From NCBI RefSeq assembly GCF_018977255.1, contig NW_024704821.1, forward strand, positions 124,001 through 188,000: DNA of 64,000 nucleotides. The letters run 5' to 3'. Within the stretch, counting starts at the first letter, position 1; every line of letters starts with the position of its first letter. Source of the DNA: Callorhinchus milii. Taxonomy: Eukaryota. This document shows positions 1 through 48,000 of this stretch, in pieces. Made by a program: the position numbers.

Positions 1-3000
1 ATCGATTGTATTATTTGACTGAACATTTAGCTGACTAAGAGCATTTTACACCAGTTCAACAATAAATTGGCATTTCTGTAAATCGAATCAGTCAGGAGGA
101 CGTCCCAAGCTAAATGTGCTCACAAGACATAAAAAAAGTAATCTTCATTATTCTTCTTTAACATCAATACGTTGATTTGTTTTGTTTCTCTCGTGACTTG
201 CCGAAGAGAATGTACATGCGTTTGATGTTTGCTTTGTTTCCACGCATCAATTAATCTGTTATCACTACACAATCTGGAATGAATGGATTATCTGTAAACC
301 AAACATCAACGTAGAGCACTATCACCGTCAGGTTTTGTCGAAGATCACAGAGCCCTGAACTTCTCCGTGTTTCTACGCCACAGAAAAGTGACAGCATTAA
401 TTACAGACAGTCTGGAAACGATTCATCAGTTTTATTAAAGTGAATACCACTGGGCCCTGAGGCTGTGTAAATCTCGGGCTCAGATGCCCATCCTTATTTC
501 CATTTAATCATCCTCAGATCGCAACTGATGATCTTCCGTCACCACTCTGCCTCCTGTCACCAGCCTTTACCCTGGTTCCTTGACAACCTATATCACTGTT
601 ATGCACTGCGAAACGCCCCATTGCGTGGAAATCGCTAAATAGGAACCAGAGGAGGCCTTTCAGTCACTCGAGATGGTTGTAACGTTATATTACACCATGG
701 CTCACCTATCTCTCCACATAAAATACCCCCCTTTTCCGCGTATCCATTCAAATTCTGAGCGAAAATAAATGTATCCAACTGAGTCTGGAAAATGTGAATG
801 AATCAACATCCACGGCTTCTTTGTGGAAGATTTCCAGATTTCATTAACAAGTTCGCAATTTTTTTCTCCCAGTTTCTTTCCTAACTGGCCTCCTCTGATT
901 CTTAGCTAATGCACACTTGATCTGCATTGCCCCACCAACCAGAAGAAATATTTCCTCTTTAAATAGCGGAAACATTTTCCCTGTTGACAGCAAAAATGTG
1001 CCCTCTTGTTTTGCTGTTTACTTACTTAAGGTAACACCACATAAAGAACTTTGCAGGTAGCAGCGCTCCCCATGAAGAAAGACATTTCTAAGTATTTTTG
1101 TACAATAACATGACCATAGTTAATAACAACAATAATAATAATAAACATGTTTGCATTTGATATATTGCCATATTATATTTCCGTGATGGCCACACAGTGC
1201 TTCATACATTACACTGCTTTCGCGTTGAATGCATGTTGTCAGGGCGAAGCACGGCAACATTGGATAAGGTGATCAATTGATTGTTGATATTATTATTTCG
1301 ATGGAATTATTACACCTGGAAAATCCATAGGCTGATCGACTAACAATCGGCTTCCTTCTTGGTAATCAGAGACGTGGGTGTGGAGTTCGGAAAGTTGCAC
1401 AATGATTCGTTTTGCAGGCAATCGAACCCATGTCTCACGCTTGAGAGTCGAGTGCTATAATCATTGAGCTACAGCACTCCATACGGCAGTTTTTGTAGGG
1501 CGGAATCGCTGATCTGAGCCTCTGTGGGGCTCAGTGCACAGTAATACACCGCGGAGTCTGTAACTCTCACTTGGATTATATTTAATGGGACGGTACTTCT
1601 CTCTTGATCAGCATTCACTGAGAAACGTTCTGTTGCAAAGTCCGCATGTTTCTGGTTCTTGTTGCCTTTGTCTGTCCTGATGATATATTCTGGAGTTTTT
1701 TCGGGATACTGACGGTACCAGAAAAGATATTCAGAGCCGTAGCCTGCAGCTGTATAATTACATTGCAGATAAACTTCCTCCCCTTCATTCACTATCACGG
1801 TAGATTGGGGCTGTGATACAGCGTCTGCTCCAACATATCCTGGAAAACAGACACACATCAGCCTTCAATACAATAGCAATAATAATAATCATTGCATTTA
1901 ATGCAGCACCTTGACGCGTCACCCAGCGCTTCACAGAATATACTGCGACTATGCATTTTGGTGGCGAAACATGGCAGTCGATTGCGCACAACTTTCTCCC
2001 ACAAACGGTCTTGAATTGAATGATCTTACAATCGTCTAACATAGCGTACCTACTTCCTGCTGCGTAAAGATAATAATAATAATCCTTGCATTTGATATAG
2101 AGCTTTTCACGTCAGGACAACGTCCCAAAGCGCTTCACAGAACACACTGTAAAGTGAATTGACTGTATATTTGTGGGCGAACGTGGCAGCCAATTGCGCA
2201 CAGCAATGTCCCACAAACAGTCGTACATTGAAATTGACCAATCTATTATTATTTTTGGTTTTGGAGGGTTTATTATTAGATGTGTCAAGTAGGAAAACTT
2301 GCCCAAGGTTTCGCCCTCTGCCTGGAATTGAACTCAGGTATTTCGCTTCCAAAGCGAGTGCTCTAACCACTGAGCTACAGGACTCCACAATAGGTGTGTG
2401 TAAGGAGTAAAGAAAATTGCCTTAGCTTTCGCCATGTACTCCTGCACAACTCCTAACGCTTGCTTGGCCAGTTCACGCGATGCGATGAATGGTGCAGCGA
2501 ATTGGATAGTTTATGCAATAAAACTAAAATTTTGGATTAAATGTGCAGGAACCATTCTGAAAGAATGAGTTGATCGCTTACCTGACAAGGTAATGATGGC
2601 TGCTGCCAGATAGATGTACATTGCTATATGTATTTAATGGCGCGGGGCGTTGAGATAGCGTTGTTGGTGTAGTTGGAGAAAGTTGGCTGAGAGGCTATAA
2701 GCTACCGTGAGGAGGGCTGAACAGGAAATGACAAACAGAAGTTATCATATACTGTGAGGGAGCAGGTCTGAGGGTTATGCACAAACCTTGTATCTCTGTC
2801 ATTGTGTATCATCTCCGCTGCACTGCCATCTGGCTCCTCCATTGGTCCTCTCTCATCCCTAACATGTCTTCGTTCAGCCGGGTGTCTGACGCATGCAGAC
2901 ACTTGCACCCATATTTAAGTTCATCCAAAATGAATGCATGATTTTCACACATATGTGCCATCTGTGCGTCTGGATGTGCCTCTGGAAAGTCACTACCTCT

Positions 3001-45000: not shown

Positions 45001-48000
45001 TCCGCCCCCACAGCGTCCCGCCCCATCCACTCCCCTCACGCAAACACACACAGTGCCACACAATCAGGTCACTCAATCCACAACAATATGTGGGCCACGA
45101 GTTTGCAAAGTTTGCTACCAAGTTTCGCCCACACAATACAATCTAACAACCCAAGCAACCCCTTCCACACTCCACCCCACACCCCACACTCTCCCACACC
45201 CACAGTGCCGCAAAGTAAAGCAACTCAAACCACAACATTTTGTGGCATATTGCTGTACACAATTGGCATCAAACAATATAGTCACTCGACTTTTCAGCGT
45301 ATTCTTTGAAGAGCTTTCAGACATCTCAATGACATAATATGGCAGTATATCAAATACAATGTTTGTCATTATTATCGTTATTATTACTGTGTTGAATAAG
45401 AAATGCCCTTACAATTGTGTTCATTAACCGTGCTAGAGAAATGATTTTATCAAATACAGCCTTGTTATTTGGTCAATACGCCACAAAACTCCTGCGGTTT
45501 AAAACTAGTTATTTCTCGAGCAGTGCAATGGCAGCTTTATAGTCCCTTCATACAAGCCGCCTGGACGTGGGATTAATATCAACTCGGCAGGACGAGATTC
45601 ACCGACAATAAAGACAGCCAGGCCTGCTCTAGAATGTCAGCCCAGAAGAGAAGAAAATAATTCGATACATATTACACAGTGATCTTTTCAGTCGCATTTC
45701 AATGTGTCAGTTGCGTGGTGAAATATCAATGTTTTTATTATGAAGTAATACACCTATTAAATAGCTTAATGTTCACGTTTAATGTAGTTGCCTAACCAAA
45801 CAGTGAGGAGTGAGACGTATATTATTTTCACACAGCAACTTGTTCCGATCTTGAACGCGTTGCCTGAAAGGGCGACTGAAGCCGTTACGGTTACAACTTT
45901 CAAGAGCGAATTGTTTTACCGTAGATAAAACTATTTATTATCGGCTGCTATTTGGGATGAAGGCAATAATATTCAACATGCGGCATAGAAATTGTTTCTT
46001 GATCAACCCAAGCCTTGTGTGAATACTTTAGGCAAGTATTTGGAAATTTCAGTTGAAGCAGCAATAGTGTGTATGAGTGAACACTGTCAACTGCAACAGG
46101 AAGCACCTGTTGCTGCTACAAAGGAAGTTAGTTACAGAAAGCAACGTGACAAGTTATGTTAATTGAAGCTCATCTTCCATGTGTTTGTTTAGTGCGCCAT
46201 CTGCTGATGGATTGTAGCTACAGCACGTATACATTTGATGGGGTTTCACAGCATAATTGTTTTTGTTTTTGCACTGGAATTTGATATACTAGTCGCATTT
46301 CCCTGCTCGTTACTCCTATTTTCTGTTGTTCCCTGGAACATTCGTGTACAACGTCAGTCACATTCCTCAATTTGACCTTTCTCTGTGCAAACATTTGCTG
46401 CCTCACTTGCACCCCCATTTTAATTCAATTCCTTGCATTTTCAGTTCATCGCCAAAACGCTCCCCTAAGTGGAAAGCGCTAAATTGGAATACCAAGAGGC
46501 CATTCTGCTCCTTGACCCTTTTCCAACGTTATATTATATCATGGCTGATCTATCCCTCAGCTCATATTCCCGCCATTTCGCCCAAACGATTGAAATTCGG
46601 AGCAAAAATAAACGTATTGAACTACGTCTGGAAAACACGAATGGAACCAACATCCCTAACCTCGTTGTGGAAGTTTTGCAGATTTCCTTAAATTTTTCAT
46701 AATTTTTTTTCTCATTTTCTCTGCTAACTGGACTGGCTCTAATGCACTCTTATTCAACATTCCTCCACCAACCAGAATAAGCAGTTTCTCTATACATGGA
46801 GGAAATAGTTTTTGTGTAAACTGTATAAATGGGACATGTTTATTTTGATGTTTTCTTGCGTAATAAAGCAGCATAGAAAGAAACTTGCAAATAACAGCGT
46901 TCCCCAGAGCTAAGCCATTTTGAATTATTACTTGGATGATAACATGACTACAGTTAATAACAATGATAGCAATAAAAGTTGCATTTGATATAACGACATA
47001 TCACATTTTCGAGACGCCTCACAGTGCTTCATATAATATACCGTAAATGAATTGACTGTATATTGTGAGTGCAAAGCACTGCAGCAAACTGTACACAGCG
47101 CTACCCCAGTGGACGAAGTGCCCAATTTATTATCAACACTAATATTCCGAAGGAATTGTTATCTCAGGAAAATCGAAACACCAATCTATTAACAACCTGC
47201 ATCCAACTTACTGTTGGTAACCAGAGACGTGTGTGTGTGGAATAAGGAAAGTTGCACAATGTTTCGTTCTGCTGGGAATTGAACCAAAGTCTCTCGCTTG
47301 TGAGGCGAGTGCTATAACCATTGAGCTGCAGGACCCCACAGGGCAGTTTTTGTAGTGCGGAACCGCTGATGTGCGCCTCTGTGGGGCTCAGTGCACAGTA
47401 ATACCCCGCGGAGTCCGTAATTCTCACTTGCAATATATTTAATGGGACGGTTCTCTCCGCTTGAGACACACTCGCTGAGAAGCGTTGTTTTGCAAATTCC
47501 GCGTGGTCCTTGTTCCTGTTTTTGGTGGATGTTCTGAGGATATATTCTGGAGCTTTGTTGGTTAAGTGACGGTACCAGAACAGATAGTCAGAGCCGGTGT
47601 TTGCACCTGTATAATTACACTGCAGAGAAACATCCTCCCCTTCAGTCACTGTCACAATAGTTTGGAGCTGTGTTACACCATCTCCTCCACAACGTCCTGG
47701 GAACCAGAAGTAGAATGATAACAGTAATAATAGCTGTTCTTATATTTGATACAGAGCTTTTTCATGTCGTTAACTTATCACCAAACATTTCACAGAGTAT
47801 ACTGTCTCTGTGCATTTTGGGCGCGAAACTTGTGACCGCATTGCTATTAGTAATTGTTTTTTTAAAGGATTATCAGTCCCGAAATGCGATCCATCGATCG
47901 GCAAAATAAATGTCACCTATTTACTGCTTGGTAAAGAGTTACATGTGAGTAGATTAAAGAAACTTGACTAACGTTTCACTGTGTCTCAACGGGGAACTGA

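What the first reader, a model, noticed from the sequence alone, without database searches (positions are those of the whole stretch)
1488..46300. V array built from a repeated mixed-family cassette A-B-A-D-C-E
Seen, in coordinate order: A B A d C [D C] E | A B A d C E | A B A D C E | A D B A C C D D (lower case = remnant). Three consecutive ~14-18-kb units keep the same family order together with shared SINE/CR1 insertions and regulatory blocks; the fourth unit is rearranged. Units 1 and 2 are offset by ~18.1 kb (V exon starts 1839/19974, 3682/21820, 7009/25116, 9467/27576). Known: the mouse Tcra V region expanded by large block duplications. Inference: the repertoire here grew by amplifying a pre-diversified multi-family module rather than by family-wise tandem arrays.
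[Added by the scan's program, not by the reader: the finding's places include an assembly gap (unread letters, written N; its length is only estimated) at 17236 to 17265. Whether the letters on both sides are continuous or in frame is not known: test that first.]
Basis: seen in the sequence. Interest (0 to 1): 0.65.

Follow-up and report, generated by a model that had tools for sequence, protein, structure and literature searches.

The report
Chimaera T-cell receptor V-gene cassette array
This is a stretch of a chimaera (elephant-shark-like) T-cell receptor alpha/delta V-gene array that grew by copying a block of several different V genes, a growth mode already known from cattle, mouse and catfish, and the copies were later partly overwritten by one another.

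Summary
All 12 named protein relatives are Callorhinchus milii, none identical, so the window is not human.

The units share intergenic DNA, promoter and leader blocks, and the junction between the E tail and the A flank. AU tests reject a within-unit origin of the two A genes (p 0.002 and 0.017). A block that was already diversified was therefore amplified.

The history is not a simple triplication:
- Units 1 and 2 are 96.4% identical over only 8.6 kb, against 67% and 83% in their flanks.
- The unit-1 tail is closest to unit 3 (90.6%), and its C-D stretch is closest to unit 4.
- The C block of unit 2 is a clean recombinant.
- The D-family tree does not follow the cassette.
- Single-gene tandem copies also occur.

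The gap at 17236-17265 touches no exon. Continuity across it cannot be shown. This is an ordinary "homology unit" architecture seen here in a new lineage.

The parts
9..18417 (-). Unit 1: A1 B A2 d' C1 D C2 E-remnant. It contains the assembly gap, so its length is provisional.
   Evidence: Unit borders come from the recurring junction of E-tail end and A1 3' flank.
18418..31904 (-). Unit 2: A1 B A2 d' C E
31905..46445 (-). Unit 3: A1 B A2 D C E
46446..64000 (-). Unit 4, cut by the window end: A1 D B A2 C C D D. It is collinear with units 1-3 for A1, B, A2 and C.
1538..1864 (-). A1 V exon of unit 1. Reading frame open, both Cys present; RSS CACAGAG-23-ACAAAAACT.
3396..3695 (-). B V exon of unit 1. 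Open; RSS CACAATG-23-ACAAAAAGT.
6712..7019 (-). A2 V exon of unit 1. Pseudogene: frameshift in the 5' part, and the second Cys is replaced by Ser.
8894..8989 (-). d' remnant of unit 1. The nucleotide match to D genes runs from about 8700 to 8990; the 5' part of the exon is lost.
9196..9480 (-). C1 V exon of unit 1. Open; RSS CACAGTG-23-ACAAAAACA.
11668..11947 (-). D V exon of unit 1. Pseudogene: frameshift, and the heptamer reads CCCAGTG.
13456..13740 (-). C2 V exon of unit 1. Open; RSS matches the consensus 9 of 9 in the nonamer.
15014..15240 (-). E remnant of unit 1. The 3' half is deleted.
17236..17265 (.). Assembly gap of 30 N. It is intergenic, and continuity across it is not shown.
19673..19996 (-). 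A1 V exon of unit 2. Pseudogene: in-frame stop.
21534..21833 (-). B V exon of unit 2. Open.
24818..25126 (-). A2 V exon of unit 2. Frame open, but the second Cys is replaced by Ser.
27003..27098 (-). d' remnant of unit 2
27305..27589 (-). C V exon of unit 2. Open. The exon is C1-type and the 5' flank is C2-type.
29283..29650 (-). E pseudogene of unit 2. Near full length, with several 1-bp deletions.
33070..33392 (-). A1 V exon of unit 3. Pseudogene: frameshift.
34654..34950 (-). B V exon of unit 3. Open.
36950..37266 (-). A2 V exon of unit 3. Pseudogene: frameshift.
39956..40240 (-). D V exon of unit 3. Open; RSS CACAGTG-23-ACACAAACC.
41760..42044 (-). C V exon of unit 3. Open.
43921..44190 (-). 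E pseudogene of unit 3. In-frame stop and a disrupted 3' end.
47395..47703 (-). A1 V exon of unit 4. Open.
49357..49638 (-). D1 V exon of unit 4. Open.
51384..51671 (-). B V exon of unit 4. Pseudogene: the codon of the second Cys is a stop.
53512..53826 (-). A2 V exon of unit 4. Open.
56174..56452 (-). C1 V exon of unit 4. Open.
58820..59098 (-). C2 V exon of unit 4. Open.
61469..61753 (-). D2 V exon of unit 4. Open.
63452..63745 (-). D3 V exon of unit 4. Open.
1490..9962 (.). High-identity patch shared with 19623-28072 of unit 2, spanning A1 to C. Divergence is about 4%, and the edges are sharp.
4138..6490 (.). Near-identical core of the patch: 2 substitutions and 2 microsatellite indels against its unit-2 counterpart.
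28066..28250 (.). Switch point in the C block of unit 2, from C1-type to C2-type sequence.
   Evidence: 345 informative sites; flank tree
12700..17235 (.). Unit-1 tail (C2 and E), closest to 41000-46193 of unit 3 at 80-97% per 500-bp tile. It carries a 0.7-kb deletion relative to unit 3.
8994..12701 (.). C1-D stretch of unit 1, collinear with 58615-62503 (C2-D2 of unit 4) at 76-80%.
4514..4559 (-). B leader exon of unit 1: 46 nt, donor GTAAGT. The same exon lies at 22645-22690, 35374-35419 and 52145-52190, each with about 200 bp of conserved promoter upstream.
2582..2621 (-). A leader exon of A1 in unit 1: 40 nt. The same exon lies at 20721-20760, 25636-25675, 33860-33899, 37769-37808, 48154-48193 and 54307-54346.
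2070..2393 (-). Young tRNA-derived SINE in the leader intron of A1 in unit 1. Its twin lies at 20205-20528 in unit 2. It is absent at this site in units 3 and 4.
4090..4416 (+). Young tRNA-derived SINE with an (ATT)n tail in the leader intron of B in unit 1. Its twin lies at 22227-22553 in unit 2.
15717..15877 (.). GC-rich minisatellite of 61-68 bp in the E tail. It also occurs at 30118-30301 and 44747-44967.

Best explanation
The window is germline DNA of the V-gene part of a T-cell receptor alpha/delta locus of a holocephalan (Callorhinchus milii or a close relative). Each element is a leader exon, an intron, a V exon and a 23-spacer recombination signal, ready for RAG-mediated joining to J (or D) segments that should lie beyond coordinate 1.

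The array grew by tandem amplification of a 'homology unit' of about 14 kb that already held several diverged V families (A1-B-A2-D-C-E). This part is shown.

The units then diverged to about 67-80% identity and lost many genes to independent lesions. Large non-reciprocal exchanges between units later overwrote parts of them. This part is inferred, as gene-conversion-like patches or double recombination between misaligned units:
- an 8.5-kb patch from A1 to C between units 1 and 2, now about 4% diverged, with an almost identical 2.35-kb core;
- an older patch of about 4.5 kb, from C to the E tail, between units 1 and 3;
- a patch between units 2 and 3.

Smaller tandem copies (a D-C pair in unit 1; C-C and D-D in unit 4) add to this. 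The net effect is birth-and-death evolution with local homogenisation.
For: IDENTITY
- Pfam V-set is above its cut-off for families A-D (4 of 4). The E fragment scores 24 bits against a cut-off of 26.
- CACAGTG-like heptamers with 22-24-bp spacers and ACAAAAAC-like nonamers follow the exons.
- The family D exon against PDB: 55 of the 60 listed chains are named T-cell receptor chains, overwhelmingly alpha; 4 are antibody constructs and 1 name is uninformative.
- Named relatives are all C. milii: 1 of 1 and 11 of 11. The best identity to the window is 94% over 84 aa, and none is identical.

UNIT AMPLIFICATION
- Collinear chains link all unit pairs.
- The unit junction recurs four times.
- Tree support: (A2 unit 4,(A2 unit 1, A2 unit 2)) 98/99; (A1 unit 3, A1 unit 4) 94/95. 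In the 3'-flank tree, (A1 unit 1,(A1 unit 3, A1 unit 4)) 98/99.
- AU tests reject within-unit A clades (p 0.002 and 0.017).
- The B tree is (U1,U2),(U3,U4).

PATCHES
- Identity between units 1 and 2 steps from 66.6% to 96.4%, then to 83.8% and 79.6%.
- The left edge is sharp: 33 mismatches in 1389-1485, then only sparse ones.
- The core 4138-6490 is nearly identical.
- In the C trees, (C1 unit 1, C unit 2) 100 and (C2 unit 1, C unit 3) 100 for the exon region. For the 5' flank, (C2 unit 1, C unit 2, C unit 3) 99 and (C1 unit 1, C2 unit 4) 100.
- The switch inside the C block of unit 2 is clean.
- E-block site patterns: U1=U3 230, U2=U3 92, U1=U2 69.

INDEPENDENT DECAY
- The three E copies carry different lesions.
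- The A1 stop in unit 2 and the A2 frameshift in unit 1 are not shared by their 96% twins.
- Open V exons with both Cys: 9 of 20 in units 1-3 (A 1/6, B 3/3, C 4/4, D 1/4, E 0/3) and 7 of 8 in unit 4.
Against: - One clade of first-position A genes is only 'not rejected' (p-AU 0.44). The free tree leaves the deep A nodes open.
- The D family does not follow the cassette. The d' remnants at the D position of units 1 and 2 fall outside a tight clade of all five intact D genes. Joining them to the D of unit 3 costs 3.1 lnL (p-AU 0.11).
- An 8.5-kb conversion tract is long. A different mechanism (replicative template switching, or a double crossover) fits equally well.
- The direction of transfer, unit 1 to unit 2, is inferred only from the hybrid C block.
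- The assembly could not be checked. A gap lies between the two 96% copies, continuity across it is not shown, and the near-identical core could be an assembly effect.
- Substitutions in the patch are 124 transitions to 123 transversions. I did not explain this ratio.
- Use of these V segments by alpha or by delta chains, and linkage to J and C, cannot be seen in this window.
Confidence: 0.72

Rival explanations
1. The strict form of the reader's model. One cassette was copied three times in tandem, and all differences between units are later point mutations, small deletions and one D-C insertion in unit 1.
For: The three units keep the same order. They are collinear. The unit junction recurs.
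Against: - Divergence between the same two units ranges from 0.1% to 33% along the unit.
- The nearest relative of a unit changes along it: the head of unit 1 is nearest unit 2, its C-D stretch is nearest unit 4, and its tail is nearest unit 3.
- The C block of unit 2 is a recombinant.
Confidence: 0.05
2. The 96% similarity of units 1 and 2 is an assembly artefact. Either two haplotypes of one unit were laid down in tandem, or the contig to the left of the gap was placed wrongly.
For: - An assembly gap lies between the two copies, and its flanks are not collinear with the other units.
- A 2.35-kb stretch is almost identical.
- The transition-to-transversion ratio is about 1.
- TCR V arrays are known to assemble badly (passages of bioRxiv 10.1101/2024.09.05.611428).
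Against: - The flanks of the two copies differ far more than alleles should: 66.6% on the left, and on the right a 4.5-kb difference followed by 83%.
- There are 247 substitutions and 30 indel events in the patch.
- Lesions differ between the twins.
- The gap does not abut either copy: it lies 7.3 kb from one and 2.3 kb from the other.
- Even if the join were wrong, the left contig would still hold a whole cassette copy.
Confidence: 0.12
3. Family-wise local duplication. Each family expanded by its own tandem copies, and the repeated order arose from later shuffling.
For: Single-gene tandem copies exist: C-C 55366-56910 ~ 58020-59555 at 73%, and D-D 61283-62013 ~ 63268-63995 at 85%. The intact D genes form one tight clade regardless of position.
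Against: AU tests reject the A genes of one unit, or of units 1+2, as a clade (p 0.017 and 0.002). Intergenic DNA and the unit junctions are collinear between units.
Confidence: 0.05
4. Unit 2 is a deletion derivative. A recent whole-unit copy of a unit-1-like cassette (A B A d C D C E) lost D-C through recombination between its two C blocks. Its tail, or the tail of unit 1, was later overwritten from elsewhere.
For: The C block of unit 2 is exactly the hybrid that such a recombination would leave. The missing piece (9963-14485 of unit 1) is one C-to-C period (9033-9963 ~ 13292-14207, offset 4259).
Against: This model needs extra events to explain why the A1 3' flank is 66.6% identical and the E block 83% identical between units 1 and 2, when the head is 96.4% identical. 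In the flank tree, the C2-type flank of unit 2 has the longest branch of the three (0.21 against 0.08 and 0.02).
Confidence: 0.12

Closest known systems
Bovine TRA/TRD 'homology units' (Connelley et al. 2014, PMC4289303; passages read)
   Same: - DNA blocks holding genes of several V subgroups are replicated. The cattle units hold 2-17 genes in 15-157 kb with 2-8 replicons.
- Varying proportions of a unit are copied, and insertions and deletions follow replication.
- Analogous genes in different replicates are a mix of functional genes and pseudogenes with non-identical lesions.
- Families with many pseudogenes ride along with families that stay intact. Here A, D and E decay beside B and C.
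   Different: - This is a holocephalan, not a mammal.
- The unit is small (about 14 kb, 6 genes).
- Sharp-edged high-identity patches and a recombinant C block are resolved here base by base. I did not see that described in the passages I read.
- The cattle paper also has expression data, which are lacking here.
Mouse Trav central-region triplication (bioRxiv 10.1101/2024.09.05.611428, passages read; its reference 21 not read)
   Same: Multi-family block amplification of TCR alpha V genes, followed by secondary contraction or rearrangement in some lineages.
   Different: The mouse event is one recent copy of hundreds of kb with high identity throughout. Here the units are small, old (67-80% identity) and mosaic.
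Channel catfish TRAD locus (PMC8656973; passages read)
   Same: Four copies of a mixed TRDV2-TRAV1-TRAV1-TRAV4 array, and homology units of 4-12 kb at about 96% identity. The authors attribute them to unequal crossing-over helped by repeats.
   Different: This is a teleost. The units named there hold fewer families. The paper's dot plots and trees are in supplements that I could not open.

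Membership tests
Germline TCR alpha/delta V gene segment (TRAV/TRDV) | Immunoglobulin V-set domain with the first Cys, the conserved Trp and the second Cys | tested here: met
   Pfam V-set scores 37.8-53.3 bits (cut-off 26) for families A-D. 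The E fragment scores 24 bits, below the cut-off. The C...W...YxC pattern is found in 21 exons.
Germline TCR alpha/delta V gene segment (TRAV/TRDV) | Recombination signal with a 23-bp spacer directly 3' of the V exon | tested here: met
   12 minus-strand exons have CACAGTG, a 22-23-bp spacer and at least 8 of 9 nonamer matches. Families A and B have variant heptamers (CACAGAG, CACAATG) with 23-bp spacers. The consensus used is recalled, not taken from a tool.
Germline TCR alpha/delta V gene segment (TRAV/TRDV) | Separate leader exon with a phase-1 intron | tested here: met
   Families A (40 nt) and B (46 nt) have a conserved ATG exon ending at GTAAG. Families C and D have only heuristic candidates. 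The leader and V exons were never joined.
Germline TCR alpha/delta V gene segment (TRAV/TRDV) | Closest to TCR alpha/delta V domains rather than to beta, gamma or immunoglobulin V domains | tested here: met
   This was tested for family D only. The best PDB matches are TCR alpha chains: 55 of the 60 listed are TCR chains. For the other families the CAL/CAV/CAE exon ends fit alpha/delta; that rule is recalled.
Germline TCR alpha/delta V gene segment (TRAV/TRDV) | Linkage to TRAJ/TRAC or TRDD/TRDJ/TRDC, and use in rearranged transcripts | not testable with these tools
   The window holds only V elements. No eukaryote genome or transcript collection was available.
V-gene homology unit (replicated multi-subgroup block) | The same order of genes from two or more subgroups recurs | tested here: met
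   A-B-A-D-C-E occurs three times, plus a rearranged fourth unit.
V-gene homology unit (replicated multi-subgroup block) | Nucleotide homology runs through the intergenic DNA and across the unit junction | tested here: met
   Collinear chains cover 54-88% of units 1-3. The junction recurs four times.
V-gene homology unit (replicated multi-subgroup block) | Genes group by position in the unit, not by unit | tested here: inconclusive
   Met for A: within-unit clades are rejected (p 0.002 and 0.017), A2 groups at 98/99, and the A1 clade is not rejected. B is compatible. Not met for D. C splits into two types that cut across units.
Single-event tandem triplication | Uniform divergence along the unit for any pair of units | tested here: not met
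   Identity between units 1 and 2 is 66.6%, 96.4%, 83.8% and 79.6% in successive stretches, with a near-identical 2.35-kb core.
tRNA-derived SINE | A tRNA-like head, a short-repeat tail, and many dispersed copies in both orientations | tested here: met
   There are 5 Rfam tRNA hits above the gathering score and 1 ARAGORN hit. The tail is (ATT)n. Inverted copies are listed. The major SINE of C. milii is reported to be tRNA-derived (PMC1845163, passage read). Target-site duplications were not examined.
CR1-like LINE | Reverse-transcriptase or endonuclease coding remnant | tested here: not met
0 of 10 long ORFs scanned gave any Pfam family; 28 ORFs of at least 130 aa were listed.

The most novel reading that the evidence does not exclude
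Two processes known from mammalian and teleost TCR alpha/delta loci may already have operated in chimaeras, the deepest living branch of jawed vertebrates. One is amplification of mixed-family homology units. The other is kilobase-scale non-reciprocal homogenisation between units, with tracts of 2-8 kb, sharp edges and one edge at the outer border of an RSS. This mode of V-repertoire growth would then be ancestral to gnathostome TCR loci. In addition, tRNA-derived SINE heads sit 10-30 bp beyond the A-rich RSS nonamer of two unrelated V families, and may act as recurrent recombination substrates there.
Probability: 0.3. Interest if true: 0.45.

Novelty: new member of a known kind. Interest (0 to 1): 0.3.

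Why it matters
The window is a compact, base-resolved example of how a TCR V repertoire is built in a chimaera. A small mixed-family block is amplified, most copies of some families decay (A, D and E) while others stay intact (B and C), and large patches are later copied between units. This extends the 'homology unit' picture from cattle, mouse and catfish to cartilaginous fish, and it bears on the debate between birth-and-death and concerted evolution of antigen-receptor genes. It does not change that picture. In practice, the mosaic means that V genes here cannot be dated or paired as orthologues from exon trees alone. The region around the gap needs long-read confirmation before any repertoire annotation.

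Tried and rejected
- CR1 check: a Pfam scan of 10 long ORFs (of the 28 listed) for LINE domains gave nothing.
- CTCF-like motif: a scan with a recalled consensus gave 4 hits against 0.14 expected. Three of the four lie inside the same coding position of D exons, so they reflect exon conservation rather than shown insulators. I dropped this line.
- Leader exons: the heuristic search gave wrong candidates for A and B (for example one inside a SINE). I replaced it with family alignments. The leaders of C and D remain unconfirmed.
- Selection on twin exons: pN/pS was a1 0.06, b 0.4, c 0.8 and C2 unit 1 against C unit 3 0.4, on 6-25 differences. These counts are too few to say anything.
- Positional orthology of d' with the D of unit 3: neither supported nor rejected (p-AU 0.11).
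- RAG-mediated origin of the patch edge next to the A1 RSS: considered and set aside. The patch includes the whole RSS, whereas RAG cuts at the border between heptamer and coding sequence (established knowledge, recalled).
- Simple unequal crossing-over as the origin of the unit 1/2 patch: rejected. It predicts that high identity continues across the unit junction, which is only 66.6% identical.
- Exact species: no protein of C. milii is identical to a window exon. I cannot tell whether this is the same species in an unannotated region or a sister species.
- Literature: searches (listings only) and passages of PMC12227049, PMC3964593, PMC1845163 and PMC10322711 gave no description of the V-array layout of a holocephalan TRA/TRD locus. 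Supplementary Note XI of PMC3964593 may hold one and could not be opened.

Full report
GAP. The window has three N runs: 17236-17265, 50672-50807 and a single N at 63121. Only the first lies inside the finding. It is intergenic. The nearest V elements are the E remnant at 15014-15240 and the A exon at 19673-19996, so no reading frame crosses it.

The left flank aligns with the tails of units 2 and 3 up to its last base (16200-17235 ~ 30621-31613 at 77.7%; 16552-17235 ~ 45510-46193 at 91.8%). The right flank does not continue that alignment. 17448-18326 is instead collinear with the B-A2 spacer (4930-6121, 69-75%). The tail sequence reappears only at 18093-18409 (~31446-31767 at 80%), so 17068-17226 is repeated at 18093-18250 at 82%. 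Continuity across the gap is therefore not demonstrated. The length of unit 1 and the 18.1-kb offset depend on the nominal 30 N. I did not try to infer the missing letters.

WHAT IS THERE. Scans for RSS and V motifs and tblastn with one exon each of four families give 28 V-like elements. The alignment shows that the E element of unit 2 is nearly full length.

- Families A-D score above the Pfam V-set cut-off. The E fragment falls just below it (24 against 26 bits).
- The exons end in YYCAL, YLCAV or YFCAE and are followed by a heptamer, a 22-24-bp spacer and an ACAAAAAC-type nonamer.
- A family D exon finds TCR alpha chains as its best solved relatives: 55 of the 60 listed are TCR chains and 4 are antibody constructs.
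- Families A and B have conserved leader exons of 40 and 46 nt ending at GTAAG, with about 200 bp of conserved promoter upstream.
- Leader and V exons were translated and searched separately.

ORGANISM. All named protein relatives are Callorhinchus milii 'Ig-like domain-containing protein': 1 passing hit of 2 candidates, and 11 of 12. Similarity extends into the translated 3' flanks, but none is identical to a window exon; the best is 94% over 84 aa. GC content is 41.8% and CpG observed/expected is 0.74. The contig is from a holocephalan and is not human.

UNITS. Self-comparison shows four collinear units: 9-18417, 18418-31904, 31905-46445 and 46446 to the window end. Chains cover 54-88% of units 1-3 and include intergenic DNA. 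The junction of E-tail end and A1 3' flank recurs at 18409|18417, about 31901|31905, about 46451|46440 and at the window start. A whole cassette was therefore repeated in tandem.

TREES.
- On a 2138-column A-block alignment, (A2 unit 4,(A2 unit 1, A2 unit 2)) has 98/99 support and (A1 unit 3, A1 unit 4) has 94/95.
- Holding all first-position A genes together costs 0.48 lnL (p-AU 0.44).
- Holding the A genes of units 1+2 together is rejected (p-AU 0.002), and so is holding the A genes of unit 3 together (p-AU 0.017).
- The flank-only trees agree.
- Family B gives (U1,U2),(U3,U4).

MOSAIC. The history is not one triplication.

- Units 1 and 2 are 96.4% identical over 1389-9962 / 19522-28072 (247 substitutions and 30 indel events).
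- The adjoining A1 flank is only 66.6% identical and the E block 83%.
- The left edge of the patch is sharp: 33 mismatches in 1389-1485, then sparse ones. It falls at the outer border of the A1 RSS.
- The right edge is the point where unit 1 has 4.5 kb (D and C2) that unit 2 lacks.
- Inside the patch, 4138-6490 differs by 2 substitutions and 2 microsatellite indels.
- The C exon of unit 2 groups with C1 of unit 1 (support 100), but its 5' flank groups with C2 of unit 1 and C of unit 3 (support 99). Of 345 informative sites, the switch from one type to the other is clean and lies between 28066 and 28250.
- The tail of unit 1 is closest to unit 3: 90.6% against 83.0% and 83.8%, with site patterns 230: 69: 92.
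- The C1-D stretch of unit 1 is collinear with C2-D2 of unit 4 at 76-80%.

Simple unequal crossing-over predicts that high identity would run across the unit junction, and it does not. The best reading is non-reciprocal patches laid over old units. The rival in which unit 2 is a deletion derivative of a unit-1-like cassette needs more events.

The D family is incongruent with the cassette. The d' remnants stand outside a tight clade of all five intact D genes. Single-gene tandem copies (C-C and D-D in unit 4) and a repeated D-C pair in unit 1 also occur.

REPEATS. The window has 5 Rfam tRNA hits and many inverted copies. These define a tRNA-derived SINE of about 327 bp with an (ATT)n tail. This fits the major SINE reported for C. 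milii (PMC1845163, passage read).

Two young copies sit in the leader introns of A1 and B of units 1 and 2 only. Older fragments sit at matching positions in many gene blocks. One is a tRNA-like head just 3' of the RSS nonamer in both the A and C families. No LINE coding remnant was found in the 10 ORFs scanned, so the CR1 label is unverified. A GC-rich 61-68-bp minisatellite marks the E tail of units 1-3.

GENE STATE. Open V exons with both Cys number 9 of 20 in units 1-3 (A 1/6, B 3/3, C 4/4, D 1/4, E 0/3) and 7 of 8 in unit 4. In unit 4 the B exon has a stop at the second Cys codon. The lesions differ between copies, so the decay followed copying.

COMPARISON. Replication of blocks that hold several V subgroups is described as a common feature of IG/TR loci:
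- Cattle have ten such units, with partial copying, later insertions and deletions, and 'collateral' expansion of pseudogene-rich subgroups (PMC4289303, passages).
- Catfish have four copies of a mixed four-gene array (PMC8656973, passages).
- Mouse has a recent triplication (bioRxiv 10.1101/2024.09.05.611428, passages).

I found no description of this layout for a holocephalan. The searches were (listings only), and the passages read were. The supplements of PMC3964593 could not be opened and may contain one. The finding is a new member of a known kind.

NOT CHECKED. Neighbouring windows, other assemblies and reads were not examined.

Noticed in passing
47264-47335 (-); also 1380-1470, 6550-6633, 9045-9119, 13304-13386, 19513-19599, 24655-24738, 27154-27228, 56021-56104: A tRNA-like SINE head lies about 10-30 bp beyond the RSS nonamer, on the V-gene strand, in both the A and C families. 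These families are only about 30% identical as proteins. Possible causes are repeated insertion at the A-rich nonamer or an old shared flank. The left edge of the unit 1/2 patch falls between this fragment and the A1 RSS.
   Followed up: partly
4138-6490 and its unit-2 counterpart: A 2.35-kb stretch is almost identical between units 1 and 2, inside a patch that is otherwise about 4% diverged. Substitutions in the whole patch are 124 transitions to 123 transversions. The cause is either a very recent second exchange or an assembly effect.
   Followed up: partly
15717-15877, 30118-30301, 44747-44967: A GC-rich minisatellite of 61-68 bp (units contain CCCCGCCCACACAG-like boxes) sits at the same place in the E tail of units 1-3. 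It gives long spurious plus-strand ORFs there.
   Followed up: no
50672-50807 and 63121: Two further N runs lie in unit 4, outside the finding. The first lies between D1 and B of unit 4, so the D insertion that makes unit 4 'rearranged' sits next to an assembly gap.
   Followed up: no
51384-51386: The B gene of unit 4 has a stop codon exactly at the second conserved Cys. The A2 genes of units 1 and 2 have Ser at the same position.
   Followed up: yes
4930-6121, 17448-18409, 10680-11068, 31337-31767, 36037-36600, 46026-46323, 52589-52974, 60508-60854: An unnamed dispersed repeat of up to 1.2 kb, bordered by a (TAT)n microsatellite, occurs in the B-A2 spacers, the C-D spacers and the ends of the unit tails. 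The assembly gap sits at the end of one copy.
   Followed up: partly
11671-11685, 39959-39973, 61472-61486 (+); 31613-31627 (-): There are four matches to a recalled CTCF-like consensus, against 0.14 expected. Three are the same coding position of D exons and one is in the tail of unit 2.
   Followed up: no
all V exons: The distance from the second Cys codon to the heptamer is fixed within a family but differs between families: 8 nt in C, 10 nt in D and 11 nt in A and B.
   Followed up: no
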